From contig DATKYK010000005.1 in assembly GCA_035528575.1 (NCBI GenBank), forward strand, positions 30,381 to 94,380: 64,000 nucleotides of DNA, written 5' to 3'. Positions 7,620-32,302 of this stretch are shown here, in pieces; within the stretch, counting starts at the first letter, position 1; the number at the start of each line of letters is the position of its first letter. The notes beneath the pieces were generated by a model. The model worked only from the letters and a program-made list of their open reading frames with translations. It was not told where the DNA came from and searched no databases. A program made the translations under genes and the position numbers. This DNA comes from Dehalococcoidia bacterium (GTDB taxonomy: Bacteria > Chloroflexota > Dehalococcoidia > E44-bin15).

Positions 7620-8981
7620 TTAGCGACTCAAGACATTTCGCAGGCGACCCAGCAGAGCCTCTTCCTCTTCCGGGAGGACGGTACGAGGATCGAGAAGCAG
7701 AAGGTTATTCTCAATCCGTCCGATGACCAGAGGTGACCCCCTGCGCAGCCTGTCAGCCAACTGCTTAACTTTGCCCCTTCCTCCGATAGCCACCAGGCAA
7801 GTGGGCAGGGTGCCACCGGGGAGGCTGCCGCCCCCTACTACGGATTCACCTTCAACTACTGAGGCAGCACCACCGAGTGACTGGCACCATTTCTGGGCTC
7901 GCTCCTCTATCTCCTCCAGGGATGCCGAAATCATCCGCCATACCGGGATTTTTACCTCCGCCTCCCCCTTGAGATAGTGGAGCAGGGTGACTGCCAGCCC
8001 TGCCAACCTTATCTTGTCGATGCGCACCGCGCGGGCCAGGGGGTGCTTTTGCAGCTTGGCCATAAGTTGGCCCTGGCCCACAATGATACCGGCCTGGGGT
8101 CCGCCCAGGAGCTTATCCGCAGAGAACATGGCCAGCCCTACGCCAGCCGCGATGCTCTGCTGCACCGTAGGCTCGGCCTCCAGCCCGAACCTGGCGGTAT
8201 CCAGGAGGCAGCCGCTGCCTAAGTCATCGAGTACTGAAAGCCGGTATCGCTCCCCCAGCTGAGTCAACTCCTCGATAGCCGCTGACTGGGTAAAACCGAC
8301 CAATCTGAAGTTACTGGAGTGGACCCGAAGCAAGGCGACGGTTCGTTGGGTGATCGCCTCTTCATAGTCCGACAAATATGTACAGTTGGTTGTCCCTACC
8401 TCCACCAGCTTGGCCCCGCTCTGGCGCATAACACTTGGGATACGAAAGCCGCCGCCGATCTCCACCGCCTGCCCCCTGGAGACGATCACCTCCTTGCCCC
8501 TAGCCAGGGCACTGAGGGCCAGGAGCACCGCTGAAGCGTTATTGTTTACTACAAGAGCAGCCTCGGCCCCGGTTAGCTGGCACAGCAGGGACTCAATGTG
8601 AACCTGGCGGGAGCCCCGCTTCCCACTATCGAGATCGATCTCCAGATTGGTATAGCCCCTGGCACACTCCTCCATAGCTGCCATAGCCTCCCGGCTTAAC
8701 GGTGCCCTCCCCAGGTTGGTATGCAGGAGAACGCCAGTAGCGTTTATCACCGGGCGCAGGCTGGGCTCTGCCAGAGAAGCGATTCGACTGCAGACCGATC
8801 CAACTATCTCGTCAAAAGTCGGGGCAGTTTGGCCCTCGGCGATATCACGGCGCACCTCTTCAAGGTATTGCCGCACCCCCCGGAGCACGAATTCGTGAGA
8901 GTATTCCTCTTGAAGGCGGTGTATGCGCTCATCAGAGAGCAACTTATCGACACTGGGAAGGCTACGAAGGCTTTGATCCAT
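7620..8981 (-). CDS. selA: L-seryl-tRNA(Sec) selenium transferase (selenocysteine synthase)
   Basis: The sequence MDQSLRSLPSVDKLL... plus a PLP-dependent core matches the SelA family along its full length. The start is placed at the Met preceding SLPSVD (the ORF track extends 17 codons further, to 9032). Confidence 0.85.
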   Translation of the reverse strand: MDQSLRSLPSVDKLLSDERIHRLQEEYSHEFVLRGVRQYLEEVRRDIAEGQTAPTFDEIVGSVCSRIASLAEPSLRPVINATGVLLHTNLGRAPLSREAMAAMEECARGYTNLEIDLDSGKRGSRQVHIESLLCQLTGAEAALVVNNNASAVLLALSALARGKEVIVSRGQAVEIGGGFRIPSVMRQSGAKLVEVGTTNCTYLSDYEEAITQRTVALLRVHSSNFRLVGFTQSAAIEELTQLGERYRLSVLDDLGSGCLLDTARFGLEAEPTVQQSIAAGVGLAMFSADKLLGGPQAGIIVGQGQLMAKLQKHPLARAVRIDKIRLAGLAVTLLHYLKGEAEVKIPVWRMISASLEEIEERAQKWCQSLGGAASVVEGESVVGGGSLPGGTLPTCLVAIGGRGKVKQLADRLRRGSPLVIGRIENNLLLLDPRTVLPEEEEALLGRLRNVLSR

Positions 8982-9060
8982 TGCGAAGGCAATGTAGCAC
9001 ATCCCGCTAAAGCCTGTCAAACGATATTTCACTGAAGTATTGCGTTAAAATTAACCAGAT

Positions 9061-9217: not shown

Positions 9218-10318
9218 GTGTTTATGCGCGTTTCACGGCGGTTAACGCCGGGTACATTGATCTTCGCCTCCGCGCTGCTGATAGGTATCCTGGCGGCATT
9301 CCTGGTGAAGTGGGGAAACCCACAGAACATGGGAATATGCGTAGGCTGCTTCCTGAGGGATATTTCAGGTTCGCTCGGCCTACATCAAGCGAGTGTTGTA
9401 CAGTATCTCCGCCCTGAGATCATCGGCTTCGTCTTAGGCAGCTTCATCGCTGCCTATGCCTTCAAGGAATTTCGGTCTAGAGGTGGCTCCGCCCCGCTAG
9501 TCCGATTTTTTTTGGGCATGTTCATGATGATCGGGATACTGGTATTCCTCGGCTGCCCGGTGAGGGCACTGCTCCGGCTTGCCGGCGGCGACCTGAATGC
9601 TATCACTGGCCTTGCTGGCGTGGCATTCGGCACCTTCGGCGGAGTGCTCCTACTCAAGAGAGGCTTTAGCCTGGGGCGTGCGGTGAAGAGGCCGACGGTA
9701 GCAGGGTGGATAATACCGGCGGTTATGGCCGGGCTCCTGATCATGGCGATAGTTCAGCCCGGCTTCCTCATTGAGAGCGAAACGGGTCCCGGCTCAATGC
9801 ACGCCGCGCTAATCGTCTCCCTGGCGGTGGGCCTGCTGGTAGGCTTCCTTGCCCAGCGGACTAGGATGTGCACTGTTGGAGGCTGGCGCGACCTGTTCCT
9901 TGTCAGGGATACCTATTTGTTTAAGGGAATAGTCGGTCTTTTCCTCGGGGCGCTGTTGACAAACCTGATCCTCACCCATGGTTTTGGTGAAAGCCTGTTC
10001 AATCTCGGCTTTGAGAATCAGCCAATCGCTCATGCCAACCACCTGTGGAACTTCCTTGGCATGGCACTGGTGGGACTGGCGGCAACCCAGCTCGGCGGCT
10101 GCCCCCTGCGCACACTGGTGCTTAGCGGCGAGGGGGATACCGATGCCGGCATGACCGTCCTCGGCCTGCTCGTCGGCGCCGCTATAGCACATAACTTCAC
10201 TCTGGCCAGTACTTCTGCCGGTCCGTCGGGGCTGGGACCTTGGGCAGTAGTCGCGGGGCTGGTGCTCTGCATAGGCCTCGGATTCCTGCTGCGGGAGAGA
10301 AAGACGATACAACGCTAG
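9218..10318 (+). CDS. yedE: YedE/YeeE-family membrane protein (putative selenium/sulfur-compound transporter)
   Basis: 366 aa, polytopic, with two internal repeats. Conserved Cys-containing motifs GICVGCFLRD and TRMCTVGGWRD are typical of YedE. GTG start with a GAAGGAGGG RBS. Confidence 0.8.
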   Translation: MFMRVSRRLTPGTLIFASALLIGILAAFLVKWGNPQNMGICVGCFLRDISGSLGLHQASVVQYLRPEIIGFVLGSFIAAYAFKEFRSRGGSAPLVRFFLGMFMMIGILVFLGCPVRALLRLAGGDLNAITGLAGVAFGTFGGVLLLKRGFSLGRAVKRPTVAGWIIPAVMAGLLIMAIVQPGFLIESETGPGSMHAALIVSLAVGLLVGFLAQRTRMCTVGGWRDLFLVRDTYLFKGIVGLFLGALLTNLILTHGFGESLFNLGFENQPIAHANHLWNFLGMALVGLAATQLGGCPLRTLVLSGEGDTDAGMTVLGLLVGAAIAHNFTLASTSAGPSGLGPWAVVAGLVLCIGLGFLLRERKTIQR

Positions 10319-10327
10319 GAGGCATAT

Positions 10328-10870
10328 ATGTCACTTTCAAAATGGAAAAAAAAACCAGCCTTCGAGGGAGGGGGATTGGTTCTGTTCATGGATGTTCAGG
10401 CTGCCTTGAAGGCCGAGAAGGTGCTAAAGGGTACAGGGCACGCCGTTAAACTGATCGCCCCTCCCCCGGAACTGCGCAAAGGCTGCGATCTGGCGGTTGA
10501 AATAAACCTGGTAGAACAACCGGGCATTGAGCGGGTCTTCGATGAGAACGACGTCTTCTATGTGGAGATCGTTCCTCTTGGAGAGGGGTATTCCGAGCTT
10601 CTGGACATCGTACAGGTGACAGATTTCGGGGACTGGGTGATGGTCAAGGCAGGCAACATGAAGCTTACCTTTGACAAGGAGACCGGAGTCATCGTAAACA
10701 CATCCGGCGGGGGATGCCCCGATATCCCCGTCATGCACACCAAGCTGGTCGATAGAAAGCTCACCGAGGCACCCAAACCTAAGGAGATCGGCTTTACCCT
10801 GTGTTCCCTGATGCTGCACCGGGCTTTAGAGGAGAGCCTTCTCATATGGCAGGGGGGTGAGCAACAATGA
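10328..10870 (+). CDS. DUF3343-like N-domain (putative Se/S carrier) fused to an uncharacterised C-terminal domain carrying an SGGGCPDIP motif
   Basis: Residues ~15-80, LVLFMDVQAALKAEKVLKGTGHAVKLIAPPPELRKGCDLAV, resemble the ~70-aa DUF3343 proteins found beside yedE/yedF/selD, including the conserved Cys. Here the protein is 180 aa, with an extra ~100-aa domain. Confidence 0.5.
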   Translation: MSLSKWKKKPAFEGGGLVLFMDVQAALKAEKVLKGTGHAVKLIAPPPELRKGCDLAVEINLVEQPGIERVFDENDVFYVEIVPLGEGYSELLDIVQVTDFGDWVMVKAGNMKLTFDKETGVIVNTSGGGCPDIPVMHTKLVDRKLTEAPKPKEIGFTLCSLMLHRALEESLLIWQGGEQQ

Positions 10871-11766
10871 TGCTTATCGCCGGGACGATTCCCGATGAGG
10901 GCGTGCCGCTGACTGTTGGTGACGTCAGTATCGAGGACAATTATCTGGCTGTCTTTGGGCACCGGTTTCCCTGCATGCAGGGAACCGGCGCTATGATCAG
11001 CGCGGCACTGGCGGTCACTGACTACCTGAAGCTCGACCGGCCCCAGGTTGTTATCGCCGGCGACATCGGCAAGGGTAAAGGGAGCCGGGCAATCTACGAA
11101 TACCTTATCCAGAATATAAGGACTCTTTCGCCAAGAGTGCTCGCGCTGCACTACTGGCTGCCCGATATGGCCCTAACGAGGAGACTATGCCAGGCCGTCG
11201 ATAACTGTGAGAGCAGGCCGATCTTAGTCGCCGATGCGGCCTCGATGTATTCCGCCAAGGCAGCGGGGCTGGCTTCATGCTTCGACATCTTTACCCCGGA
11301 CGCTACTGAAATGGCCTTCCTCGCCGACACCTCAGCCACCCACCCTGCCTATATCGCCAGGCATCTCTTCGATAACGATATCACACAGACACCGAATCTA
11401 GTTGCTGCTGCCTACCAGAATAGGGGCGCAGCCAGGTTGCTTCTAGTCAAGGGAGCAGTTGACTACGTGATTCGTGATGGTGAGATTCTGGAAAGGGTGG
11501 ATGAACCGGATGTGCCTGAGTTGGAGGCTATAGGGGGGACCGGCGACACCATTACCGGCCTGGTCTCCGCTTTCGTCTACGCTGGCCTGGAACCGCATCA
11601 AGCAGCCATAATCGCAGCCAAAGCAAACCGTATGGCAGGGAAGTTCGCCCAGCCTACACCGGCAACCAAGGTTAGTGAAATCGTAAAACAGTTCCCCGCT
11701 GTGTTTAAGGAATACCTCTGTGAGTGGAGCGGGGTTTGCCTTACACGAGGAGGAAAAAATGACTGA
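10867..11766 (+). CDS. Ribokinase-superfamily-like protein (YjeF-C/ThiM-like fold, GGTGD motif) of unknown function, embedded in the selenium cluster
   Basis: 299 aa. Motif EAIGGTGDTITGLVSAFVYAG is typical of ADP/ATP-dependent small-molecule kinases/dehydratases of the ribokinase fold. Overlaps neighbours by 4 and 8 nt, so co-translated with yedE and yedF. Confidence 0.4.
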   Translation: MMLIAGTIPDEGVPLTVGDVSIEDNYLAVFGHRFPCMQGTGAMISAALAVTDYLKLDRPQVVIAGDIGKGKGSRAIYEYLIQNIRTLSPRVLALHYWLPDMALTRRLCQAVDNCESRPILVADAASMYSAKAAGLASCFDIFTPDATEMAFLADTSATHPAYIARHLFDNDITQTPNLVAAAYQNRGAARLLLVKGAVDYVIRDGEILERVDEPDVPELEAIGGTGDTITGLVSAFVYAGLEPHQAAIIAAKANRMAGKFAQPTPATKVSEIVKQFPAVFKEYLCEWSGVCLTRGGKND

Positions 11767-11971
11767 AGTCGATGCCCGCGGGCTATCATGCCCGATGCCG
11801 GTAATAAAGACTAAGAACGCCTTGGAAGACATAGAGTCAGGGGACGTGGTAGTCATCGTCAATGACGCTACAGCGCGCGATAACGTTACTCGCCTGGCAA
11901 AAAGCAAGGGGTGTGCCATCTCTGTGGAGCGAAAGGGGGATGATTTTTATCTAACCCTGACTAAGGGTTAA
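11759..11971 (+). CDS. yedF: TusA/SirA-like sulfur(selenium)-carrier protein, YedF-type
   Basis: 70 aa from the ATG at 11759 (GGAGGA RBS). CPxP motif DARGLSCPMPVIKTK. The ORF track's longer version from 11720 probably over-extends. Confidence 0.7.
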   Translation: MTEVDARGLSCPMPVIKTKNALEDIESGDVVVIVNDATARDNVTRLAKSKGCAISVERKGDDFYLTLTKG

Positions 11972-12085
11972 AAGGGGCAGAGCAAAGGAACCGAGATTCG
12001 TTCCGTGTGAAAAAAGTTGTGCGGCTTCAGCCAAGATGCTATGATGGTTCAACTACCATTCGCACTCCACAATGAAGGGAGGACA

Positions 12086-13138
12086 ATGGACGACCAAGTG
12101 AGGCCAAGGCTCACCGAGACCGTTCGCGGCTCCGGCTGAGCTTCCAAGATAGGTCCGTCGGACCTGGATAAAGCATTGTGCGGCCTGCCCCTGGTCGATG
12201 ACCCGAACCTGCTTGTCGGCCTGGAGAAGGGTGATGATGCTGCAGTGTATAGGCTGAACGATGAGCTGGCCATCATCCAGACCATCGATTTCATTACGCC
12301 CATCGTCGATGACCCCTATACCTTCGGGCAGATCGCTGCCGCCAACGCCCTTAGCGATGTCTACACCATGGGGGGCAGGCCCCTCACCGCGATGAATGTT
12401 GTCTGCTTCCCCACGAAGAGCCAGGAGATATCGGTGCTCAGGGACATCCTGCGCGGTGGATTCGATAAACTACAGGAGGCAGGGGTTGCCCTTGTTGGTG
12501 GGCACAGTGTAGAGGATAACGAACTGAAATACGGGCTATCGGTAACCGGCGTGGTACACCCAGCCAAGATAATCACCAGGGAGGGAGCCGAGATAGGGGA
12601 TAAGTTGATCCTCACCAAGCCCCTGGGCACGGGACTGGTTAGCACCGCCCTGAAGGGTGGATTGGCAGGAGAGGAGGCTGTGGCGGGAATCGTTAGCTCT
12701 ATGATTACATTGAACAGAAGGGCATCGGAGCTAATGCTGGAAGCTGAAGTACACGCCTGTACCGATATAACCGGCTACGGTCTCCTGGGGCATGCCTGTG
12801 GAATGATAGAGGATGGCCAGTTGGGCATGGAGCTCCATGTGGGGGCCATTCCCCTCTTCCCAGAGGCGAAGGAGTTCGCCCAGATGGGTCTGGCTCCAGC
12901 GGGAACACATCGCAACAGGGAGTTTCGCCTTAATATGATAGAGCAGGCTTATGAGATAGGCGATGATATATGGAGCATCCTATTTGACCCCCAAACCTCG
13001 GGTGGATTGCTGATCTCGGTCCCGGGTAAAGAGGCTGAGGCGCTACTGCAAAACCTGCACCGGAATGGCATAGAGGATGCTGCCATCATTGGAGCGGTAA
13101 TAGGCAAACCGAAGGGAAAAATCGTCATCCGGGAGTGA
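12086..13138 (+). CDS. selD: Selenophosphate synthetase (selenide, water dikinase), selenoprotein form with in-frame UGA
   Basis: ATG at 12086 (GGGAGG RBS) gives MDDQVRPRLTETVRGSGUASKIGPSDLDKALCGLPLVDDPNLLVG... The TGA at 12137-12139 aligns with catalytic Cys17/Sec of SelD (E. coli [20 protein letters not shown]). The rest matches SelD throughout. The ORF track started only at 12176, after the UGA. Confidence 0.85.
12137..12166 (+). other. Sec-encoding UGA of selD followed 11 nt later by a SECIS-like hairpin (AGGUCC-GUC-GGACCU)
   Basis: Hairpin at 12151-12165, at the canonical bacterial SECIS distance from the UGA, with G/U in the loop. Confidence 0.6.
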
Positions 13139-13141
13139 AGT

Positions 13142-14992
13142 ATGTCCTTTGTCCTGGGCACCGCAGGTCATGTCGATCACGGGAAATCGGTTCTGGTTAA
13201 GGCCCTCACCGGGATAGACCCGGACCGGCTGCGGGAGGAGAAAGAGAGAGGCCTGACCATCGACCTCGGCTTTGCCTGGTTAGAGCTGCCCAGCGGTCGA
13301 GCTGTAGGCATTGTGGACGTCCCCGGACATGAGCACTTCATAAAGAACATGCTCGCCGGTGTTGGAGGCATCGACATCGCCCTGCTCGTTGTCGCCGCCG
13401 ATGAAGGGGCAATGCCCCAGACCAGGGAGCACCTGGCCATTCTCGACCTGCTGAAGGTTGAAAATGGCATCGTAGTAATCACCAAGAAAGATCTGGTAGA
13501 CGATGAGCTGCTGGAATTGGTAACACTGGAGCTAAATGAGCTGCTGGCGAGTACAACGCTGTCCCAAGCCCCGATACTCGCCGTCTCCGCACTCACCGGC
13601 GAGGGCTTGCCCGAGTTGGTTTCCACCATTGACCTGGTTTTAGATTCGGCCACGCCCAAGCAGGACATCGGCAGACCAAGGCTTCCCATAGACCGTGTCT
13701 TTACCATGACTGGTTTTGGCACCGTGGTTACCGGAACCCTGGTCGATGGTTCTTTATCCAAGGGGCAAGAAATAGAGATCCTGCCCTCCGCTCTTACAGC
13801 ACGTATACGCGGGCTGCAATCACACAAGCAGAAGATCGACACTGCCCCTCCGGGCAGCCGCGTTGCGGCTAACCTGTCCGGTTTGTCTACCGTTGAGCTT
13901 GCGCGTGGCGATGTGGTGACCACCCCTGGTTGGCTCCTGCCGACCAGAGCGTTCGACGTCAAGCTACGCCTGCTGCCCTCTGCACCCCGCCCTCTCCCCC
14001 ATAATGCTACCGTTACCTTTCACCATGGGGCCGCCGAGGTGCTGGGGAAGGTCCGCCTGCTGGAAAGGGACAGGATTGACCCAGGGGAAACAACATGGGC
14101 TCAGTTTCTACTTGCTCAGCCCATTGCGGCTGTTAAGGATGACCGATTCATCATTCGCTCCCCCCAGGAGACCCTTGGCGGAGGGCAAATCGTTGGCCCC
14201 CGGGCAAAACGACACCGCCGCTTTCGCCCCGATGTCATTGAGAGACTAGCCACCAGGGAGGCGGGCACCGCTGAACAGATAATCCTGGCCATTATACAAG
14301 AAGAAGGGCCTCTCGAGCTGGAGAGGTTGCTGTCCCTCTGCAATCTGAGGCAAGGGGAAGCAGAGCAAGCCATAAAATCACTGGCCGCCCAGAAGAATGT
14401 TATAGCACTGAGAGACATGGGGCTGCTTTTCTCAGCCCAGGGTTGGGAAAAGCTGTCAAAGCAAGCAGAGCAAGCTGTCCGGAGATACCACCAGCAATTC
14501 CCGCTTCGCCACGGCCCTCCTAAAGAGGAACTAAAAGGCAAGCTGAAGACCCGCACCAAGTTCTTTGCCCACATACTGGAGCAGCTTATACAGGAAGGCA
14601 CTCTAATTGAGGTGGGGCCAATGGTGCGCCTGCCAGAGCACGAGCCTCAGCCAACGCCAAAACAGCAGGCGGAGGTCGACGCTTTCCTGGATAGGCTGAC
14701 ACACAATCCCTACTTGCCGTCCCTCGATCCTCTACCTGAGCCGGACCTCCTCAATCTGCTCATAGAGAAGCGTCTGGTGGTGAAGGTAAGCGATGACGTG
14801 ATCTTCCTGGCCTCTATCTATGACAAGATGGTGGATGACATAATCGCCGAGATAAAATCACGGGGCAAGGTAACCGTAGCCGAGGTCCGCGACCTTTTCC
14901 ACACCAGTCGCAAATATGCCCTGGCCCTGATGGAATACCTGGACACGCAAAAATTAACCCGCCGCGTCGGTGATGAGCGGGTGTTAAGGTAG
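13142..14992 (+). CDS. selB: Selenocysteine-specific translation elongation factor
   Basis: 616 aa. GTPase domain GTAGHVDHGKS...DVPGHE... EF-Tu-like domains II/III plus C-terminal winged-helix SECIS-binding domains. Start is 4 nt after the selD stop. Confidence 0.9.
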   Translation: MSFVLGTAGHVDHGKSVLVKALTGIDPDRLREEKERGLTIDLGFAWLELPSGRAVGIVDVPGHEHFIKNMLAGVGGIDIALLVVAADEGAMPQTREHLAILDLLKVENGIVVITKKDLVDDELLELVTLELNELLASTTLSQAPILAVSALTGEGLPELVSTIDLVLDSATPKQDIGRPRLPIDRVFTMTGFGTVVTGTLVDGSLSKGQEIEILPSALTARIRGLQSHKQKIDTAPPGSRVAANLSGLSTVELARGDVVTTPGWLLPTRAFDVKLRLLPSAPRPLPHNATVTFHHGAAEVLGKVRLLERDRIDPGETTWAQFLLAQPIAAVKDDRFIIRSPQETLGGGQIVGPRAKRHRRFRPDVIERLATREAGTAEQIILAIIQEEGPLELERLLSLCNLRQGEAEQAIKSLAAQKNVIALRDMGLLFSAQGWEKLSKQAEQAVRRYHQQFPLRHGPPKEELKGKLKTRTKFFAHILEQLIQEGTLIEVGPMVRLPEHEPQPTPKQQAEVDAFLDRLTHNPYLPSLDPLPEPDLLNLLIEKRLVVKVSDDVIFLASIYDKMVDDIIAEIKSRGKVTVAEVRDLFHTSRKYALALMEYLDTQKLTRRVGDERVLR

Positions 14993-14996
14993 ATGA

Positions 14997-15084
14997 TGGC
15001 GGGAGCGCATAGGAGTCGAACCTACCGTAGACACCGCATGGTGCCCACCAACGGATTTGAAGTCCGCGGAGTCCACCGGGGCCC
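14997..15084 (-). repeat. Truncated 3' copy of tRNA-Sec (88 nt, lacks the 5' acceptor strand). Direct repeat of 21308-21395.
   Basis: Reverse complement reads ...GGGCCCCGGUGGACUCCGCGGACUUCAAAUCCGUUGG...GGUAGGUUCGACUCCUAUGCGCUCCCGCCA. It is identical to the full selC downstream except for 1 nt, but has no 5' GGGAGCG partner for the acceptor stem. Confidence 0.75.
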
Positions 15085-15295
15085 GTGTCAATGGTGGGGG
15101 TTAATGATGTGGTTACAATTTTGCAACCTGAGGTTGTGTTGGTAAGATAACAGGTTTATCGCATCCTGGGCTATGGGCAGTGCACAGAGAATTATTGTAT
15201 CAAGCACAGTTCGCAATGTTAGTATTGACAGCATATGCCATTGCAGCTTAGAATCTCGTAGGTATAATTTAAATTCAATTAGGAGGTAATGAGCA

Positions 15296-16222
15296 ATGTG
15301 GAAAGTACTAGTCATCGGCATTATGTTGGTATTTTTATTAGCCTTGGCAGGGACTTCTGCTGCCACAACTCAACCCATGGGGGGAGCGTTTGAGACGACG
15401 CCAAAGGATTTACCTGTAATGAAACTGCCCGATGATATGAGTGGAGGGCCGACGACGCCTACTGGCAATCCATATGGTGTGCCACCAGGCCAGGATAAAA
15501 AGCCAAAACCAGATGACGGTTCAGAGGCTAATAAATGGGCAGTTGTAATTGGTATTTCCAATTACAGAGCTGGTGATTCTCTGTGGAATCCAGCGAATGA
15601 TGCCAAAGAGATGAAACAGGCGTTGATTGATAATTATGGCTTTCCGGAGAATAACATTAAACTTCTATTGGACAGAAAGGCAACAGCAAGAGCCATCGAT
15701 AAGGCGATAGACTGGCTAGCTAAGAGCGAGGATGCTGACTCGTCGGTGGTATTTTTCTTTAGTGGTCATGGGTATCGTGCAGCGGATGCTGATAAATGGG
15801 ATTCCGATGACGAGGTCGATGGTTACGATGAATTGATAGTTACGTATGACAACTATGGCCTCCCAGATGGATGGTTAAAGGGTAAGCTTTCAACCCTAGA
15901 ATCGCTAAAAATTACACTCGCCTTTGGTTCGTGTCACTCAGGGGGCATGTTCGACGACCCTGATGACCTTCAGGGTGAGGGACGTGTCATTGCAGCTGCA
16001 TGCAAAGCAGATGAGTATGGTTGGGATTACCTGCAGCTACGTAATACTCTCTGGGGCTATTACTTTGTCGATGAGGGTTTGCTCCAGGGTCTTGCTGACT
16101 TAAATGGAGATGGCGTTTCTATCCAAGAAGCCCATGCCTATGCTTATGCTGGAGTGACATCAGTGAGGGATGACTCACACCCACAGATAAGCGACCAGTA
16201 TTTTGATGAGCTAATCCCTTAA
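15296..16222 (+). CDS. Secreted caspase-family (peptidase C14, metacaspase-like) protein
   Basis: Signal peptide, then a Pro/Gly-rich linker. C14 domain WAVVIGISNYR...NDAKEM...VVFFFSGHGY (His) and LAFGSCHSGGMF (Cys). Lower GC than the flanks. Confidence 0.7.
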   Translation: MWKVLVIGIMLVFLLALAGTSAATTQPMGGAFETTPKDLPVMKLPDDMSGGPTTPTGNPYGVPPGQDKKPKPDDGSEANKWAVVIGISNYRAGDSLWNPANDAKEMKQALIDNYGFPENNIKLLLDRKATARAIDKAIDWLAKSEDADSSVVFFFSGHGYRAADADKWDSDDEVDGYDELIVTYDNYGLPDGWLKGKLSTLESLKITLAFGSCHSGGMFDDPDDLQGEGRVIAAACKADEYGWDYLQLRNTLWGYYFVDEGLLQGLADLNGDGVSIQEAHAYAYAGVTSVRDDSHPQISDQYFDELIP

Positions 16223-18851: not shown

Positions 18852-20675
18852 CTACGCTACTCTCTTCCTCTTAATCAACACTGCAACTGTCATAGCTACC
18901 ACTATAAGAGCAGCAAGTCCCAGCCACGGTGCTAGTATGCCAATCTTATCCACAGGCTCGACAATCCCGCCAACTGCAACCTGTCTCTCATATGCTCCCA
19001 CGTCGCAGACGTAGGTGCCATCTATATCCCCGTCCGCCGGCCGTGGTTGCCCCCGCTGGTCGGTGGTTAGGTTACATGAAACAATGCAGGCGTCTATGGC
19101 CGGGCTGCCAGTTATTAGAGCGTGGGTCTCTGTGGGACCCCCGTTATCCTGAAGCGGGCCGAGGAGGGGGTCGGGAGCAGGGCTAAGAAGCTCATCTACG
19201 ATGGATTCGCCGCCGATGTCTAAGTACTCACCGTAGTAGTTCTTATCAACAGCAGCATTATTACCGTATATTATGGTGCATCTTAGCTCTACATACTCCG
19301 CCCAACCCGTCCCTTCGTTATAAACGCCACCACCCCAATTCTGTGCAGAGTTATTGCTTACCGTGCAGTTAGTAAGAGTTGTAAGGCCCACGTAGGTATA
19401 TATGCCACCACCTTCCTTAGCGTTGTTTCCACTCACTGTACAGTTGGTCATATCCACTCGGCCACTATCATTACGAATACCACCACCGTTATCCCCGGCT
19501 TCGTTGCCGCTGATGGTGCAGTTGGTCAGCGTCACCTCGTCTTCATTGTTATAAATACCGCCGCCATCGCCAGAGGCGTTGTTTCCGCTGATGGTGCAGT
19601 TGGTCATCGTCACCGTGAAATCCGGCCCGACGGTACCAATGCCGCCGCCGTTGCCGTCCCGGGCAGTGTTGCCGCTGACGGTACAATCGGTCATCGTCAC
19701 GTGACCGCCGTAGTTATAAATGCCGCCTCCGTTATAGGCCTCATTTCCGCTTACGGTGCAGCCGGTCATCGTCAGCTCATCACCATAATCATTAAAGATG
19801 CCACCACCATTATTGTCGGCATCGTTTCCGCTTACGGTGCAGCCGGTCATCGTCACATTGCCACTATTATAAATGCCGCCTCCGTCGGGAGCCTCATTTC
19901 CAATTATGGTGCAGTTGGTCATCTCAAGCGGGCCATCGTTCCGAATGCCGCCGCCTTCGGTATCGGCCTTGTTATCGCTGACGGTGCAGCCGGTCATCGT
20001 CAGCCCATCTCCCGCCCCCCCGTTGTTATAAATGCCACCGCCGAGCATCCCGCTCGCGGCAGTGTTTCCGCTGACGGTGCACTTGGTCAGTGTCACCTCG
20101 CCCCCGTCTCTATAAATGCCGCCTCCCCAAAAATTAGCCTCATTCCCACTTATGGTGCAGCCGGTCATCGTGAGATTGCCACCGTTGTTATATAGGCCGC
20201 CTCCATTATAAGCCTCATTCCCACTTACGGTGCAGTTGGTCATCGTCACATTGCCGTATTCGTTATATAGACCGCCGCCGTTTGCTGCGGTTGAAACATT
20301 GCCATTCCGAATCGTCATGCCGGACATATCGACCGTGGAATTATTTATATAAAACACCCTGCTCATATCCTCACCGTCAACGAAGGTGCTTCCCGCACCT
20401 GCACCCCGTAGCGTCAGGGACTTGTTTATTGTAATGTCATGCTCATTGTATTGCCCTGCTGCTATGATGATGGTATCGCCTGCGGATGCGTTCCCGATAG
20501 CGCTCTGAATTTTACAGAACGGGTTGCCCACCGTGCCTGTCCCTGGCCCAGGGCAGCTCGTAGCATCAACATACCAAGGCGGTTGTGCAGACACTGTGCC
20601 TATTGGAATTATTACCGAGGCCAACGAAAATACAAGTACCAGAGCCACTACCATACTAACCATCCTGGCTTTCAT
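18852..20675 (-). CDS. Secreted parallel-beta-helix repeat surface protein with a C-terminal membrane anchor and basic tail
   Basis: 607 aa. Signal peptide. More than 15 tandem ~22-aa repeats of the type GGGIYN.G.VTMTNCTVSGN.A (PbH1-like). C-terminus ...IGILAPWLGLAALIVVAMTVAVLIKRKRVA. Confidence 0.65.
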   Translation of the reverse strand: MKARMVSMVVALVLVFSLASVIIPIGTVSAQPPWYVDATSCPGPGTGTVGNPFCKIQSAIGNASAGDTIIIAAGQYNEHDITINKSLTLRGAGAGSTFVDGEDMSRVFYINNSTVDMSGMTIRNGNVSTAANGGGLYNEYGNVTMTNCTVSGNEAYNGGGLYNNGGNLTMTGCTISGNEANFWGGGIYRDGGEVTLTKCTVSGNTAASGMLGGGIYNNGGAGDGLTMTGCTVSDNKADTEGGGIRNDGPLEMTNCTIIGNEAPDGGGIYNSGNVTMTGCTVSGNDADNNGGGIFNDYGDELTMTGCTVSGNEAYNGGGIYNYGGHVTMTDCTVSGNTARDGNGGGIGTVGPDFTVTMTNCTISGNNASGDGGGIYNNEDEVTLTNCTISGNEAGDNGGGIRNDSGRVDMTNCTVSGNNAKEGGGIYTYVGLTTLTNCTVSNNSAQNWGGGVYNEGTGWAEYVELRCTIIYGNNAAVDKNYYGEYLDIGGESIVDELLSPAPDPLLGPLQDNGGPTETHALITGSPAIDACIVSCNLTTDQRGQPRPADGDIDGTYVCDVGAYERQVAVGGIVEPVDKIGILAPWLGLAALIVVAMTVAVLIKRKRVA

Positions 20676-21307: not shown

Positions 21308-21405
21308 TGGCGGGAGCGCATAGGAGTCGAACCTACCGTAGACACCGCAAGGTGCCCACCAACGGATTTGAAGTCCGCGGAGTCCACCGGGGCCCATCCG
21401 CTCCC
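21308..21405 (-). tRNA. selC: tRNA-Sec (anticodon UCA), full length with encoded CCA
   Basis: Reverse complement GGGAGCGGAU GGGCCC-CGGU-GGACUC ... GCGGA-CUUCAAA-UCCGU ... long variable stem-loop ... GUAGG-UUCGACU-CCUAU GCGCUCCC G CCA. It has a 6-bp D-stem with 4-nt loop, UCA anticodon, long extra arm and 5-bp T-stem, all typical of bacterial tRNA-Sec. There is a G-G mismatch at acceptor pair 8. Confidence 0.8.
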
Positions 21406-22081: not shown

Positions 22082-22453
22082 TTGCTAGGTGACTTCGGTT
22101 ACATTGGAATTTTCCTCGTTGCTGCTCTTGGTTTTACCGCCTCAATGATCCTAATCCCCGTTACCCTCAGGCTCCTCCACATCGTCCCCCGGAAGCCCAA
22201 CCCCACAAAGTACACCACCTATGAGTGCGGCATGGAAACGATAGGCAACTCCCGGGTTCAATTCAACTTCCGCTATTATTTCTTTGCCCTGCTCTTTGTA
22301 ACCTTCGATGTACAGGTGGTCTTTCTCTATCCCTGGGCAGTGGAGCTAAAGCAGCTTAAGCTCTTCGGGCTGGTGGAGATGCTGGCATTCGTACTGATCC
22401 TGATGGTCGGTTTTGTCTATGCGTGGAGAAAGGGGGTTCTAAAGTGGAAATAG
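22082..22453 (+). CDS. nuoA: NADH-quinone oxidoreductase subunit A
   Basis: 123 aa, 3 TM. ...[40 protein letters not shown]... conserved NuoA core. TTG start. Confidence 0.85.
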
Positions 22454-23040
22454 AGATGCCCTATGTGAGCAGCGAGCTGGATAAGACCGAGGGCGCGGAA
22501 ATAGAGGCGCTCATCGCAGCTTCAAGGGAGCCCTATCCCGATCCGGTAGCCTGGCTCCATGAGGAGCTTCAGCGCAATGTGCTGCTTACCTCAACCGAGC
22601 ACGTTATAGACTGGGGGAAGCGCTACTCTGTCTGGCCGGTTCTCCTGGGGCTCGCCTGCTGCGCCTTCGAGATGATCTGTGCTGCTGCTTCGCGCTATGA
22701 TTTCTCTCGATTCGGCATGGAGGTTTTTCGCTTCTCCCCACGCCAGGCCGACCTGATGCTTGTTGCCGGCACGCTCACCTGGAAGATGGCCCCAGCCCTG
22801 AGGCGAATCTATGATCAGATGGCCGAGCCGAAGTGGGTCATAGCTATGGGGGCCTGCACTATCAGCGGTGGGGCATTCCGTGGTTCCTATAGCGTGGTTC
22901 CCGGGATAAACCTCATCGTCCCGGTAGACGTCTACATCCCCGGGTGCCCGCCTCGCCCCGAGGGTCTGCTCCACGGATTCATGGAGCTGCATCGCAAGGT
23001 CTTGAAAGACAAACTTATAAAGAAAGAAAAGGATGACTAA
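22423..23040 (+). CDS. nuoB: NADH-quinone oxidoreductase subunit B (N2 cluster subunit)
   Basis: Motif GLACCAFEM...GACTISGG...IPGCPP (four Cys ligands of cluster N2). The true start may be the ATG at 22456, directly after the nuoA stop. Confidence 0.85.
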
Positions 23041-23497
23041 GCAGCTTTCCGGCCCAGAGGTCGCACAGCAAGTAGGAGGGCGATTCCCCGACGCGATCAC
23101 TGGTTCCGATGAAACCGCTGTTTTCGTCCGCGGCGAAGCGCTTCTTGAAGTGGCGCGCTTCATCAAAGAGAGCCTCGATCTCGATTACCTCAACAGCATC
23201 ACCGCCGTCGATTACATCGACTATTTCGAACTGGTATACCTTCTAACCTCGCTAGAAAATAACCATAGCATCATCTTAAAGACGAGGTGCGATGAGCGCG
23301 AAAATCCCAGGCTGCCCTCGGTGGTCAGCCTGTGGCAGGGGGCCGATTTTCAGGAGCGCGAGATCTATGACCTCATGGGCATCTCCTTTGAGGGACACCC
23401 CAATATGAAGCGAATCTTCCTCTGGGATGGGTTCAAGGGGCATCCTCTGAGGAAGGATTTTGTTATAGACGTGCCGGGCGGTGGGAAAGCGACGTAG
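23033..23497 (+). CDS. nuoC: NADH-quinone oxidoreductase subunit C (30 kDa)
   Basis: 154 aa. ...[42 protein letters not shown]... matches the NuoC core. Confidence 0.8.
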
Positions 23498-23507
23498 CAG
23501 GGAGTAA

Positions 23508-24611
23508 ATGACGCTCAAGACCGAGCCAGTCACTATTAATATAGGGCCGCAGCACCCCTCAACCCATGGGGTATTTCGGATGAGGGTCACCTTCGATGGC
23601 GAGGTGATCGTCGATATGGAGCCCATCTTTGGCTACCTCCACCGCGGGATCGAGAAGCTCGCAGAGCATAAAACCTACACCCAGAATATCCCCTTTACCG
23701 ATAGGCTGGACTACCTGGCCTCGATGTCCAATAACTTTGCCTACGTGCTAGCGGTGGAGAAGCTTGCCGGTATCGAGGTCCCCGAGCGGGCAGAATATAT
23801 CAGAATAATAATGGCCGAGCTTATGCGGATTGCCAGTCACCTCATGGGAGTGGGATTTTTCTTCAACGACATGGGAGCCTTCATGACGCCGGTCCTTTAT
23901 ATGTTACGCGAGCGGGAAAAGATCCTAGACCTCTTTGAGATGGCCTGCGGGCAGCGCCTGACCTATAACTATATGCGCTTCGGCGGGGTTAGCCACGATA
24001 TCCCCCAGGAGTTTATACCGGCACTGAAGAGGTTTATCGGTGAGATGCCCCGCTATATCGATGAATACGACCAGCTTCTTGCCGAGAACGAGGTGGTACT
24101 TGCCCGCGCCAAGGGAGTGGGCATTCTACCAGCGGATAAGGCAATCAACGCTTCGGTCGCCGGCCCGGTGCTGCGTGCCAGCGGGGTAAAGTGGGACCTG
24201 CGCAAGGCAGATCCCTACTCTATCTATGACCGGTTCGATTTCGACATCCCTACCGGCACCAATGGCGATAACTACGACCGGTACCGGATTAAGATAGAGG
24301 AGATTAAGCAGAGCGTGCGCATTATCGAGCAGGCTATGGAGCAGATTCCCCAAGGGGAGGTACGCACCAGGGTATCGCCGACATTCAAGCCGCCTAAAGG
24401 GGAAGCCTACGGCAGGGTGGAGGGCCCCAAGGGAGAGCTGGGCTTTTATCTGGTGAGCGATGGCTCTGCTAAACCCTATCGCTTCAAGGTACGTGCCCCA
24501 ACACTACTAAACCTCACCGTACTCCGCGATATGATTATCGGACGGATGCTGGCAGATGCCATAATCACCTTTGGCAGCATTGACATCTGTATGGGCGAGG
24601 TGGATCGCTAG
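23508..24611 (+). CDS. nuoD: NADH-quinone oxidoreductase subunit D (49 kDa)
   Basis: 367 aa. [39 protein letters not shown]...ICMGEVDR matches Nqo4/NuoD end to end. Confidence 0.9.
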
Positions 24612-27600: not shown

Positions 27601-27652
27601 GGACAATAACCGGGTGGTTGAGGAGGAGAGAGAGAAGGAAAAGGTGACGTGA
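24611..27652 (+). CDS. nuoH/nuoI: Tripartite fusion: NuoH (aa 1-~330), an extra TM helix, the NuoI N-terminal segment, a GltD-like NAD(P)H/FAD oxidoreductase domain (~440 aa), the NuoI 2x[4Fe-4S] ferredoxin domain, and an acidic/basic tail
   Basis: The N-terminus matches NuoH through ...[50 protein letters not shown] is an added TM segment. [38 protein letters not shown] aligns with the NuoI N-terminus. [54 protein letters not shown] matches the GltD/DPD Fe-S N-domain. [17 protein letters not shown] is the FAD Rossmann motif and [31 protein letters not shown] the NAD(P)H Rossmann motif. [12 protein letters not shown] and [12 protein letters not shown] are the two NuoI CxxCxxCxxxCP motifs. No separate nuoI gene exists, and nuoJ overlaps the stop by 4 nt. 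Confidence 0.8.
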   Translation: [1013 protein letters not shown]

Positions 27653-28143
27653 TTGGTTTAGATATTGCCTTCTGGATTCTGGCGGTGGTGAGCGTTAGTG
27701 CGGCTCTGGCGGTGGTACTACTGCGCGATGTCTTCCGCGCCGCACTTTTCCTGATGCTATGCTTCCTCACCGTTGCCGGAATCTATATCACCCTGAGTGC
27801 CGATTTCCTTGCCGGCGCACAGGTGCTCATCTATGTGGGGGCCATCGGGGTGCTTATCATCTTCGCTATCATGCTTACCAGAGAGAGCCAGCGGGGCAGC
27901 CCCTCGGGGCGACTACGGCTCCCTGCCTTACTGATAGGGCTTTTCTTTCTAATAACCATGCTCTTTGTGGTGTTGAATACCGATTGGCATGTCGTCGCTG
28001 AGATTCCCACCCAGCCCACCACATCAGCGATCGCAGATGCCCTGTTTAATAAGGTGGATGGCTTCGTCCTTGCCTTCGAAATAGCAGCAGTGCTTCTGCT
28101 GGCAGCGATAATCGGGGCTATAGTGCTGGTGAGGGAGAAATAG
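27649..28143 (+). CDS. nuoJ: NADH-quinone oxidoreductase subunit J
   Basis: 164 aa, 5 TM, ND6-like. Position and size fit between the nuoH/I fusion and nuoK. Confidence 0.8.
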   Translation: MIGLDIAFWILAVVSVSAALAVVLLRDVFRAALFLMLCFLTVAGIYITLSADFLAGAQVLIYVGAIGVLIIFAIMLTRESQRGSPSGRLRLPALLIGLFFLITMLFVVLNTDWHVVAEIPTQPTTSAIADALFNKVDGFVLAFEIAAVLLLAAIIGAIVLVREK

Positions 28144-28146
28144 ACG

Positions 28147-28452
28147 ATGTCTGTTGGACTCGAGCATTTCTTGATCCTTTCAGCGGTGCTCTTCTCTATC
28201 GGGCTCTATGGCGTTCTGGCAAAGAGAAATGCGGTGATAATCCTGATGAGCATCGAGATAATGCTTGCTGCAGTGAGTATCTCTATGGCGGCTTTCTCCC
28301 GGTATAGCCATGTCATCACCGGACAGGTCTTTGTCATCTTTATTATGGTAGTCGCTGCCGCCGAGGTTACGGTTGGTCTGGCGCTTATAATTACCATCTA
28401 TCGAAGAAAGAAAACTGTGGATGCAGAGAAATTCGATCTAATGAAGTGGTAG
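28147..28452 (+). CDS. nuoK: NADH-quinone oxidoreductase subunit K
   Basis: 101 aa, 3 TM, ND4L-like (LEHFLILSAVLFSIGLYGVLAKRNAVIILMSIEIMLAAV). Confidence 0.85.
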   Translation: MSVGLEHFLILSAVLFSIGLYGVLAKRNAVIILMSIEIMLAAVSISMAAFSRYSHVITGQVFVIFIMVVAAAEVTVGLALIITIYRRKKTVDAEKFDLMKW

Positions 28453-28456
28453 TACT

Positions 28457-30379: not shown

Positions 30380-30395
30380 AAATTAGGAGGAAAGG

Positions 30396-32292: not shown

Positions 32293-32302
32293 GGAGCGAG
32301 CA

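What the first reader, a model, noticed from the sequence alone, without database searches (positions are those of the whole stretch)
12086..13138. selD is a selenoprotein: in-frame UGA at 12137-12139 plus SECIS-like hairpin. The ORF track mis-started the gene after the UGA.
- Translating from the ATG at 12086 (GGGAGG RBS) through the TGA gives MDDQVRPRLTETVRGSG-U-ASKIGPSDLDKAL..
- This aligns residue-for-residue with the SelD N-terminus, placing the UGA at the catalytic Cys/Sec position.
- A 6-bp hairpin with a GUC loop begins 11 nt downstream, which is the canonical bacterial SECIS spacing.
- The surrounding operon supplies selA, selB and, nearby, selC, so the decoding machinery is present.
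Basis: partly seen in the sequence, partly recalled or inferred. Interest (0 to 1): 0.5.

Follow-up and report, generated by a model that had tools for sequence, protein, structure and literature searches.

The report
Selenocysteine-coding selD gene with SECIS hairpin
The gene for selenophosphate synthetase (selD) in this window does contain an in-frame UGA that is almost certainly read as selenocysteine with the help of a small RNA hairpin just downstream. This is a well-known and often mis-annotated feature of selD in many anaerobic bacteria, so the finding is correct but ordinary.

Summary
An ORF from ATG 12086, preceded by GGGAGG, runs through TGA 12137-12139 to the stop at 13138. It encodes a full-length SelD (TIGR00476, 383 bits). 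The UGA aligns with catalytic Cys17 of E. coli SelD.

All 78 assessable closest genomic relatives carry TGA at this codon. They come from Dehalococcoidia, Desulfobacterota, Bacillota and other lineages. The 17 codons upstream of the TGA evolve like coding sequence.

A 7-bp hairpin (12150-12166, GUC loop) meets all four published bacterial SECIS criteria. It closely matches the SelD SECIS that a selenoprotein database shows as its example entry.

The strongest evidence is at synonymous sites inside the hairpin. These sites are nearly fixed in Sec-type genes: the Gly wobble is U in 42/45 and the Asp wobble is C in 43/45. They are free in 108 Cys-type selD genes that encode the same peptide motif. 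Hairpins form in 42/45 Sec-type genes against 27/108 Cys-type genes (p about 1e-15).

selB follows selD after 3 nt, and selA and tRNA-Sec are nearby. TGA is otherwise an ordinary stop codon in this genome.

Sec-containing SelD is the second most widespread prokaryotic selenoprotein family, and its truncation by gene callers is documented. Interest is therefore low.

The parts
12086..13138 (+). selD coding sequence (350 codons), selenide, water dikinase, with selenocysteine at codon 18
   Evidence: Translation. TIGR00476 at 383 bits (cut-off 125), plus AIRS and AIRS_C domains. PDB matches to 2yye (5e-77) and 3u0o (6.9e-65) cover the N-terminal loop.
12077..12082 (+). Shine-Dalgarno-like GGGAGG, 3 nt before ATG 12086
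   Evidence: Read directly from the sequence. Many relatives have a Met 17 codons before the UGA.
12137..12139 (+). In-frame UGA, the selenocysteine codon at the position of catalytic Cys17 of E. coli SelD
   Evidence: TGA is present at this codon in 78/78 assessable relatives. Cys-type homologues have TGY at the same position.
12150..12166 (+). SECIS upper stem-loop: 5' arm 12150-12156 (UAGGUCC), loop 12157-12159 (GUC), 3' arm 12160-12166 (GGACCUG)
   Evidence: It appears in the MFE and centroid structures. The hairpin alone folds at -8.4 kcal/mol. Only 0.9% of synonymous recodings are as stable. Synonymous sites are constrained in Sec-type genes only. An almost identical element is given as the SelD SECIS example in BSepDB.
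12140..12174 (+). Possible lower helix of the SECIS: GCUU 12140-12143 paired with AAGC 12171-12174. Support is weak.
   Evidence: It appears in the MFE structure. Across 72 relatives 75% of cells pair, which is no better than column shuffles. It may simply follow from the two Ala codons.
13142..14992 (+). selB, the Sec-specific elongation factor, starting 3 nt after the selD stop. It has the C-terminal winged-helix domains that bind SECIS RNA.
   Evidence: TIGR00475 at 372.5 bits. Pfam SelB-wing_3 at 69 bits, SelB-wing_2, and Beta-barrel_SelB. No terminator-like site lies between selD and selB.
21308..21405 (-). tRNA-Sec (selC), anticodon UCA
   Evidence: ARAGORN. Rfam RF01852 at 70.2 bits against a gathering score of 47.
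7620..9032 (-). selA, L-seryl-tRNA(Sec) selenium transferase, transcribed divergently from the yedE-selB block
   Evidence: TIGR00474 at 567 bits and Pfam SelA at 457 bits.
9218..11971 (+). Selenium-handling genes upstream of selD: yedE (9218-10318), DUF3343/Se_S_carrier (10328-10870), a Carb_kinase-like ORF (10867-11766) and a TusA/YedF-like ORF (11720-11971)
   Evidence: The same genes sit next to Sec-type selD in 20-38 of 80 related loci. YedE, YedF and DUF3343 are published selenium-linked genes.

Best explanation
selD (12086-13138) encodes a selenocysteine-containing selenophosphate synthetase.

Proposed mechanism:
1. Translation starts at ATG 12086.
2. When the ribosome reaches UGA at codon 18, the SelB-GTP-Sec-tRNA(Sec) complex is already held on the mRNA. 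SelB is encoded immediately downstream, and tRNA-Sec lies at 21308-21405. The C-terminal winged-helix domain of SelB is bound to the hairpin at 12150-12166, which has a GUC loop and starts 11 nt after the UGA.
3. SelB delivers Sec-tRNA(Sec) to the A site, so Sec is inserted instead of termination.
4. The ribosome then melts the hairpin and translates it as I-G-P-S-D-L.
5. The Sec lies in the N-terminal glycine-rich loop (G-S-G-U-A-S-K), the position of catalytic Cys17 in E. coli SelD. There it handles selenide for ATP-dependent selenophosphate synthesis.

Shown here: the gene anatomy, homology across the UGA, conservation of TGA, selection on the hairpin, and presence of the machinery.

Inferred, not shown: actual Sec insertion, SelB binding, and enzyme activity.
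For: - Full-length SelD homology spans the UGA. The UGA aligns with E. coli Cys17, the selenide-binding residue whose serine mutant is catalytically inactive (PMC3956282).
- Cys-type homologues have near-identical flanking peptide, GSGCASKLGPGDL.
- TGA is present at this codon in 78/78 related loci from several phyla.
- Codons upstream of the UGA conserve the amino acid while the wobble base varies freely. For example L9 and G17 are 100% conserved with wobble entropies of 1.76 and 1.74 bits. That region is therefore translated.
- The hairpin meets the bSECIS model quoted in PMC13188914. The model requires a loop of 3-9 nt, a stem of 4-16 bp, a G in the first two loop positions followed by G or U, 16-37 nt between the UGA and the loop, and MFE <= -7.5. 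The values here are a 3-nt loop, a 7-bp stem, loop GUC, 17 nt, and -12.7 kcal/mol (-8.4 for the hairpin alone).
- Internal control within the Sec-type genes: wobble entropy is 0.40 bits at Gly23 and 0.20 at Asp26. The mean for 62 other conserved fourfold-degenerate columns is 1.75, and other Asp columns give 0.87-1.0.
- External control with the same peptide motif, Sec-type against Cys-type: Gly wobble U 42/45 vs 33/108 (p=1.7e-13); Pro wobble purine 45/45 vs 61/108 (p=3e-9); Asp wobble C 43/45 vs 71/108 (p=4e-5); hairpin present 42/45 vs 27/108 (p=9e-16).
- The BSepDB example SelD SECIS, UGAGCAGCCAAAUUGGGUCCGGCGGACCUC, has the same GGUCC/GGACC stem in the same place.
- selB with SECIS-binding wing domains, selA and tRNA-Sec are all present.
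- TGA ends 13 of 38 long ORFs, including selD itself, so the genetic code is standard.
Against: - There is no direct evidence for Sec insertion or SelB binding. All evidence is computational.
- The hairpin is small. Its folding energy alone is not distinguishable from shuffled sequence (z = 0.16).
- The published SECIS criteria are permissive. 13% of synonymous recodings pass them.
- No Rfam family matches the element.
- Relatives use two mutually exclusive pairing registers, so the exact structure that SelB recognises is not settled.
- The lower helix has no comparative support beyond chance.
Confidence: 0.93

Rival explanations
1. The UGA is a genuine stop. The functional gene starts downstream (TTG 12176 or later) and makes an N-terminally truncated SelD, as gene callers annotate it. 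The 17-codon upstream ORF is meaningless or a leader peptide.
For: The mechanical ORF list and all public calls for close homologues give 307-328 aa proteins that start after the UGA.
Against: - The truncation removes the glycine-rich loop carrying the catalytic Cys/Sec, the residue whose mutation inactivates E. coli SelD.
- The region upstream of the UGA matches the SelD profile from position 1.
- That region is conserved at the amino-acid level with free wobble positions across phyla.
- There is no GGAGG-like motif before TTG 12176.
- Called starts differ among relatives, so no downstream start is conserved.
- This explanation does not account for selection on the hairpin in TGA-type genes only.
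Confidence: 0.03
2. The TGA is a sequencing or assembly error, or an inactivating mutation, and selD is a pseudogene.
For: A single in-frame stop near the 5' end is what a pseudogene or a base-call error would look like in isolation.
Against: - The same TGA is present in 78/78 related loci from independent assemblies and phyla.
- It is also present in an independent metagenome contig that encodes the identical protein (L081).
- The rest of the gene is intact, and its catalytic aspartates are invariant.
Confidence: 0.005
3. The UGA is decoded, but not as selenocysteine. Options are a reassigned genetic code (UGA read as Trp or Gly), near-cognate read-through, or Cys inserted through mis-charged tRNA-Sec.
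For: Some uncultured bacteria reassign UGA. Cys can be inserted at Sec codons when selenium is scarce (my own knowledge, not tested here).
Against: - TGA terminates 13 of 38 long ORFs in the window, including selD itself.
- A complete Sec machinery is encoded next to the gene.
- The homologous position is Cys in Cys-type enzymes, never Trp or Gly.
- Occasional Cys insertion under selenium limitation cannot be excluded, and it would be compatible with the main explanation.
Confidence: 0.03
4. The hairpin is a by-product of the conserved peptide I-G-P-x-D-L (GGN CCN ... GAY YUN is partly self-complementary) and has no role in decoding.
For: - The stem is built from codons of highly conserved residues.
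- 25% of Cys-type genes with the same motif also form a hairpin here.
- 13% of synonymous recodings pass the SECIS criteria.
Against: - With the peptide motif held constant, Sec-type genes form the hairpin in 93% of cases against 25% for Cys-type genes.
- Sec-type genes fix the wobble bases that make the pairs. Cys-type genes use all four bases there, even though their GC content is higher.
- The native codon choice is in the top 0.9% for local stability given this genome's codon usage.
Confidence: 0.03

Closest known systems
Sec-containing bacterial SelD (selenophosphate synthetase selenoprotein family), for example the BSepDB entry for Acetomicrobium mobile SelD
   Same: - The N-terminal motif is the same (...RLTE..R.SG-U-A[AS]K[IL]GP.DL).
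- The UGA is at the catalytic position.
- The SECIS has the same GGUCC...GGACC stem at the same distance (UGAGCAGCCAAAUUGGGUCCGGCGGACCUC).
- SelD is described as the second most widespread prokaryotic selenoprotein family, with Sec in the N-terminal flexible loop.
- It is described as frequently mis-annotated.
   Different: - Nothing differs in kind.
- The loop here is GUC, where the example has GGC.
- The host appears to be an uncultured Dehalococcoidia bacterium. The closest named relative is a Dehalococcoidia MAG at 80% identity.
- selB is directly coupled downstream here, which only 1 of the 80 related loci (L010) shares; three others have selB nearby on the opposite strand.
Aquifex aeolicus SelD (PDB 2yye/2zod) and E. 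coli SelD (PDB 3u0o)
   Same: - Full-length homologues (E = 5e-77 and 6.9e-65).
- The alignment covers the Gly-rich loop, with the window's U18 opposite the Cys of 'SSGCAAK' and Cys17 of 'GAGCGCK'.
- Asp and Asn residues are invariant at positions that correspond to E. coli D51, D68, N87, D91 and D227. Their role in metal and ATP binding is recalled from memory.
   Different: - E. coli uses Cys (UGC) and has no SECIS.
- The crystallised A. aeolicus protein has Cys at this position. From memory, the native gene has Sec; this was not checked here.
E. coli fdhF SECIS and the consensus bacterial SECIS model (bSECISearch)
   Same: - It lies in the coding region immediately 3' of the UGA.
- It has a small apical loop beginning with G followed by U, a 7-bp upper stem, and 17 nt from the UGA to the loop. 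All of these are inside the model's limits.
- From memory, the 11-nt gap to the hairpin equals the spacing required for the minimal fdhF element.
   Different: - It is much shorter than the ~40-nt fdhF element.
- It has a triloop rather than a larger loop with a bulged U.
- There is no sequence similarity, and no Rfam model covers it.

Membership tests
SelD / selenophosphate synthetase (TIGR00476, COG0709) | PurM-like two-domain architecture (AIRS N-terminal and AIRS C-terminal domains), scoring above the equivalog cut-off | tested here: met
   TIGR00476 at 383.1 bits (cut-off 125). NF002098 at 322 bits (cut-off 299). PF00586 at 104 bits and PF02769 at 76 bits.
SelD / selenophosphate synthetase (TIGR00476, COG0709) | N-terminal glycine-rich loop with the catalytic Cys/Sec (E. 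coli Cys17) followed three residues later by Lys (E. coli Lys20) | tested here: met
   G15-S16-G17-U18-A19-S20-K21 aligns with E. coli G14-A15-G16-C17-G18-C19-K20. The role of Cys17 is taken from PMC3956282. The role of Lys20 is recalled from memory.
SelD / selenophosphate synthetase (TIGR00476, COG0709) | Conserved acidic and Asn residues of the ATP/metal site | tested here: met
   D51, D68, N87, D91 and D227 are invariant in a 13-sequence alignment. They occupy the same numbered positions in E. coli SelD according to the pairwise alignment. Their functional assignment is from memory.
SelD / selenophosphate synthetase (TIGR00476, COG0709) | ATP-dependent synthesis of selenophosphate from selenide | not testable with these tools
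   This needs an enzyme assay.
Bacterial selenoprotein gene (Sec-UGA plus SECIS) | In-frame UGA aligned with Cys in homologues and conserved as UGA in orthologues | tested here: met
   78/78 related loci have TGA. Cys-type homologues have TGY at the same position.
Bacterial selenoprotein gene (Sec-UGA plus SECIS) | Stem-loop meeting the bSECIS model: loop 3-9 nt, upper stem 4-16 bp, G in the first two loop positions, 16-37 nt from the UGA to the loop, MFE <= -7.5 kcal/mol | tested here: met
   Criteria are from PMC13188914. Here the loop is GUC (3 nt), the stem is 7 bp, the distance is 17 nt, and the energy is -12.7 kcal/mol, or -8.4 for the hairpin alone. The bSECISearch program itself was not available.
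Bacterial selenoprotein gene (Sec-UGA plus SECIS) | Evolutionary constraint on the RNA structure beyond what the protein requires | tested here: met
   Synonymous-site entropies. Sec-type against Cys-type contrast. Covariation is significant for one register: 0/500 shuffles reach the observed score. It is not significant for the window's own register.
Bacterial selenoprotein gene (Sec-UGA plus SECIS) | The genome encodes SelA, SelB, SelD and tRNA-Sec | tested here: met
Bacterial selenoprotein gene (Sec-UGA plus SECIS) | SelB binds the hairpin, and selenium is incorporated at the UGA | not testable with these tools
   This needs a gel shift, 75Se labelling or mass spectrometry.
Rfam SECIS families | A match to a curated SECIS covariance model | tested here: not met
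   Only tRNA-Sec reaches gathering score in the window. Permissive scanning of 12080-12240 gives only chance hits: mir-7385, sR48 and HgcC, with E = 0.7-8. This reflects the absence of any Rfam model for this element, so it is not evidence against function.

The most novel reading that the evidence does not exclude
The UGA/SECIS at codon 18 might act as a selenium-sensing gate for the whole selD-selB transcription unit.

selB starts 3 nt after the selD stop, with no terminator between them. Termination at codon 18 under selenium shortage would therefore uncouple or lower selB translation. Sufficient selenium would give a self-reinforcing rise in both SelD and SelB.

A second, smaller point concerns the selD SECIS itself. 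Across lineages it exists in two mutually exclusive registers. One has a GGUCC/GGACC stem with the loop starting at the Pro wobble G. The other has a CCAGG/CCUGG stem with a GGA loop. This suggests the element has slid by 3 nt while staying inside the invariant G-P-G-D-L motif.
Probability: 0.2. Interest if true: 0.35.

Novelty: already known. Interest (0 to 1): 0.1.

Why it matters
The value is practical, not conceptual. The gene should be annotated as a 350-residue selenoprotein starting at 12086, not as the 320-residue truncated product that public databases hold for this clade. It also marks the organism, probably an uncultured Dehalococcoidia bacterium, as a Sec user. Other UGA-interrupted genes elsewhere in its genome should therefore be expected. 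It opens no new question: Sec-containing SelD, its SECIS and its mis-annotation are all documented.

Tried and rejected
- Folding energy of the single sequence. The z-score was 0.16 against dinucleotide shuffles, which is uninformative for so short a hairpin. I replaced it with synonymous-recoding and comparative tests.
- Rfam. The gathering-threshold scan of the whole window found only tRNA-Sec. A permissive scan of 12080-12240 gave only chance hits. Rfam has no model for this element.
- Covariation on the window's own pairing register. It is not better than column shuffles, because most stem positions are fixed by conserved codons. The alternative register does show covariation. I therefore relied on the contrast of wobble positions between Sec-type and Cys-type genes.
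- Lower helix 12140-12143 / 12171-12174. It has no support beyond chance.
- Promoter and terminator scan of 11700-15400. No promoter-like site passes threshold before selD, and the counts are at chance level.
- Search for other UGA-interrupted genes in the window. I examined 24 of the 71 same-frame segment pairs joined by TGA; none looked like a coding read-through. Sec codons within 12 codons of a gene end would have been missed.
- NuoD-like gene 23508-24611. I checked it for a C-terminal Sec, as reported for some Group 4 hydrogenases. It ends normally in TAG after ...CMGEVDR.
- Minus-strand ORFs overlapping selD (12049-12303, 12361-12645, 12705-12908, 12949-13161). None has a Pfam match.
Full report
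**1. What is in the sequence**

Reading window 11900-13300 shows an ATG at 12086-12088, preceded by GGGAGG at 12077-12082. An in-frame TGA sits at 12137-12139, which is codon 18. The frame then stays open to the TGA stop at 13136-13138.

The translation is MDDQVRPRLTETVRGSG*ASKIGPSDLDKALCGL..., 350 codons in all. The mechanical ORF list starts the gene at TTG 12176, giving 320 aa.

An out-of-frame ATG at 12072 runs into a stop after nine codons and is irrelevant.

**2. It is SelD, and the homology runs across the UGA**

With Cys substituted for the stop, the 350-residue protein scores 383 bits on the selD equivalog TIGR00476 (cut-off 125). The match covers residues 8-316 and profile positions 1-310. 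The 17 residues before the UGA are therefore part of the family profile. Pfam finds the AIRS and AIRS_C domains.

Against solved structures the best matches are:
- Aquifex aeolicus SelD, 2yye/2zod, E = 5e-77;
- E. coli SelD, 3u0o, E = 6.9e-65.

Both alignments begin upstream of the UGA. They place it opposite the Cys of 'SSGCAAK' and opposite Cys17 of E. coli 'GAGCGCK'. E. coli Cys17 lies in the glycine-rich region 14-21. It is the selenide-binding residue, and its serine mutant is catalytically inactive (PMC3956282).

Rare full-length database homologues that have Cys read ...KNPRLTESVRGSGCASKLGPGDLDQALCGL... This is almost identical to the window on both sides of the UGA.

**3. The UGA is conserved, not an error**

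A protein search shows that identical and near-identical proteins in public collections are almost all called as 307-328 aa. They are truncated after the UGA, and the chosen start varies from relative to relative.

I fetched the 80 closest genomic loci. They come from Dehalococcoidia/Chloroflexota, many Desulfobacterota lineages, Bacillota, Calditrichota, KSB1 and others. In them:
- 71 carry TGA at the aligned codon by a motif search;
- the 7 that the motif search missed carry it too;
- the remaining 2 are cut off by the contig end.

That makes 78 of 78 assessable loci. An independent metagenome contig encoding the identical protein also has the TGA (L081).

Upstream of the UGA, amino acids are conserved while third positions vary freely. 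For example Leu9 and Gly17 are 100% conserved with wobble entropies of 1.76 and 1.74 bits. This is the signature of translated sequence. Many relatives have a Met exactly 17 codons before the UGA.

**4. The genetic code is standard and the Sec machinery is present**

TGA ends 13 of 38 stop-to-stop segments of at least 250 codons in the window, and it also ends selD itself.

The machinery found is:
- tRNA-Sec (anticodon UCA) at 21308-21405 on the minus strand, by ARAGORN and Rfam RF01852 at 70.2 bits;
- selB at 13142-14992, starting 3 nt after the selD stop, at 372 bits on TIGR00475, with the SelB winged-helix domains;
- selA at 7620-9032 on the minus strand (567 bits).

Between selA and selD lie yedE, a DUF3343/Se_S_carrier gene, a Carb_kinase-like ORF and a TusA/YedF-like ORF.

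**5. The hairpin**

The minimum-free-energy and centroid structures of 12137-12190 contain a 7-bp stem with a GUC loop. The stem is UAGGUCC (12150-12156) paired with GGACCUG (12160-12166). The loop is at 12157-12159. A 4-bp lower helix is also predicted.

The published consensus model for bacterial SECIS elements (PMC13188914, Fig. 2 legend) sets four constraints. The table compares them with this hairpin.

| Criterion | Model | Here |
|---|---|---|
| Apical loop | 3-9 nt | 3 nt (GUC) |
| Upper stem | 4-16 bp | 7 bp |
| UGA to loop | 16-37 nt | 17 nt |
| MFE | <= -7.5 kcal/mol | -12.7 kcal/mol; -8.4 for the hairpin alone |

All four constraints are met.

The BSepDB paper prints, as its example entry, the SelD of Acetomicrobium mobile. 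Its 'canonical SECIS element' is UGAGCAGCCAAAUUGGGUCCGGCGGACCUC..., which has the same GGUCC/GGACC stem at the same place.

**6. Is the hairpin more than chance?**

Energy alone says nothing: z = 0.16 against shuffles. The criteria are also loose: 13% of synonymous recodings of the peptide ASKIGPSDLDKALCG, drawn from this window's own codon usage, pass them. Three tests show selection nonetheless.

(a) Synonymous recoding. Only 0.9% of those recodings give a local hairpin as stable as the native one.

(b) Internal control within the 72 Sec-type genes.
- The Gly23 wobble is U in 44/47 (0.40 bits).
- The Pro24 wobble is only G or A (0.88 bits).
- The Asp26 wobble is C in 64/66 (0.20 bits).
- By contrast, 62 other conserved fourfold-degenerate columns in the same genes average 1.75 bits (minimum 0.70).
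- The ten other conserved Asp columns give 0.87-1.0 bits.

(c) External control with Cys-type genes. A degenerate DNA pattern for G-C-A-x-K-x-G-P-x-D-L, with all wobble positions left free, was scanned over metagenome contigs. It yielded 108 distinct Cys-type selD genes. The comparison with the 45 Sec-type genes that have the same peptide motif is shown below.

| Feature | Sec-type | Cys-type | p |
|---|---|---|---|
| Gly wobble is U | 42/45 | 33/108 | 1.7e-13 |
| Pro wobble is a purine | 45/45 | 61/108 | 3e-9 |
| Asp wobble is C | 43/45 | 71/108 | 4e-5 |
| Hairpin in one of the two registers | 42/45 | 27/108 | 9e-16 |

The Sec-type hairpins are also more stable, despite lower GC content (55% against 69%). 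The structure is therefore maintained only where a UGA has to be recoded. A loss of SECIS structure in Cys-type SelD has been reported before (cited in PMC13582414).

**7. Caveats on the structure**

Relatives use two mutually exclusive registers.
- The window's register is GGUCC/GGACC, with the loop starting at the Pro wobble G.
- The second register is shifted by 3 nt: CCAGG-GGA-CCUGG.

On the 72-sequence alignment the second register shows covariation beyond all 500 shuffles. The window's register is 77% paired (76.8%, helix 2) but, being built on conserved codons, is no better than shuffles. The lower helix has no support beyond chance. No Rfam family matches the element. SelB binding and Sec insertion are inferred, not shown.

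**8. Rivals**

- Real stop with a downstream start. This would delete the catalytic loop. It has no Shine-Dalgarno motif and no conserved start. It explains neither the coding-like conservation upstream nor the hairpin constraint specific to Sec-type genes.
- Sequencing error or pseudogene. This is excluded by the 78/78 conservation.
- Reassigned UGA. This is excluded by normal use of TGA as a stop and by Cys, not Trp or Gly, in homologues.
- Hairpin as a by-product of the peptide. This is excluded by the Cys-type control.

**9. Comparison with what is known**

[quoted passage not shown] The window's gene meets every testable defining feature of both SelD and a bacterial selenoprotein gene. 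It is an ordinary member of a catalogued family.

**10. Verdict**

Novelty: already known. Interest: about 0.1. The practical outcome is a corrected annotation, namely a 350-aa selenoprotein starting at 12086.

The least ordinary reading still open is that the UGA gates expression of the translationally coupled selB in response to selenium. This is speculative. Among the 80 relatives, only L010 has selB directly downstream of selD; in L008, L028 and L038 selB lies upstream on the opposite strand.

Noticed in passing
window 10867-11766 (+); also next to selD in L001, L004, L011, L012, L014, L016, L023, L029, L030, L033, L034, L036, L041, L048, L052, L065, L075 and others: A ~299-aa ORF of the ribokinase / Carb_kinase (YjeF C-terminal-like) fold sits between DUF3343 and selD. 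Its family matches are weak: PF01256 at 42 bits, all NCBIfam hits far below cut-off, and the best PDB hit is a thiazole kinase at E = 0.009. tblastn finds it beside Sec-type selD in 21 of 80 loci from several phyla, at 39-72% identity, in all but one (the contig-end fragment L013) with a DUF3343 gene beside it. [quoted passage not shown] It may be an unnamed selenium-linked gene.
   Followed up: partly
window 10328-10870 (+): The DUF3343/Se_S_carrier protein here is 180 aa, about twice the 80-100 aa described as typical. Only residues 17-82 match the Pfam domain. The long form is conserved next to the kinase-fold gene in related loci.
   Followed up: partly
alignment A2 of L001-L080 and the window, columns 14-33 after the UGA: The selD SECIS occurs in two mutually exclusive pairing registers across lineages. 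One is GGUCC-loop-GGACC, as in the window. The other, shifted by 3 nt, is (U)CCAGG-GGA-CCUGG(A); it is typical of loci with K-L-P-P-G-D-L and a Pro CCA codon. Both sit inside the conserved G/P-P-G-D-L motif.
   Followed up: partly
window 11720-11971 (+): The YedF-like gene encodes only the TusA/SirA domain. It is 83 aa and matches positions 1-66 of the 194-position YedF profile; it ends in TAA and has no DsrE-like half. In Dehalococcoidia loci it lies directly before selD. In most Desulfobacterota loci it lies between yedE and DUF3343.
   Followed up: partly
window 13136-13144: The selD stop (TGA 13136-13138) and the selB start (ATG 13142) are 3 nt apart, with no terminator-like site between them. 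This suggests translational coupling. Of the 80 related loci, only L010 has selB directly downstream of selD; in L008, L028 and L038 it lies upstream on the opposite strand.
   Followed up: partly
window 22423-33724 (+): This is a complex I / nuo-like cluster, with a 20-kDa NuoB-like subunit and a 49-kDa NuoD-like subunit followed by long membrane-subunit ORFs. The NuoD-like protein ends normally in TAG (...CMGEVDR), so it is not one of the Sec-containing Group 4 hydrogenase variants recently reported in Chloroflexota.
   Followed up: yes
window 15296-16222 (+) and 18852-20675 (-): Between selB and tRNA-Sec lie a caspase-domain (Peptidase_C14) protein and a 607-aa beta-helix/PMP-repeat protein with a choice-of-anchor Q domain. 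Neither has an evident connection to selenium metabolism.
   Followed up: no
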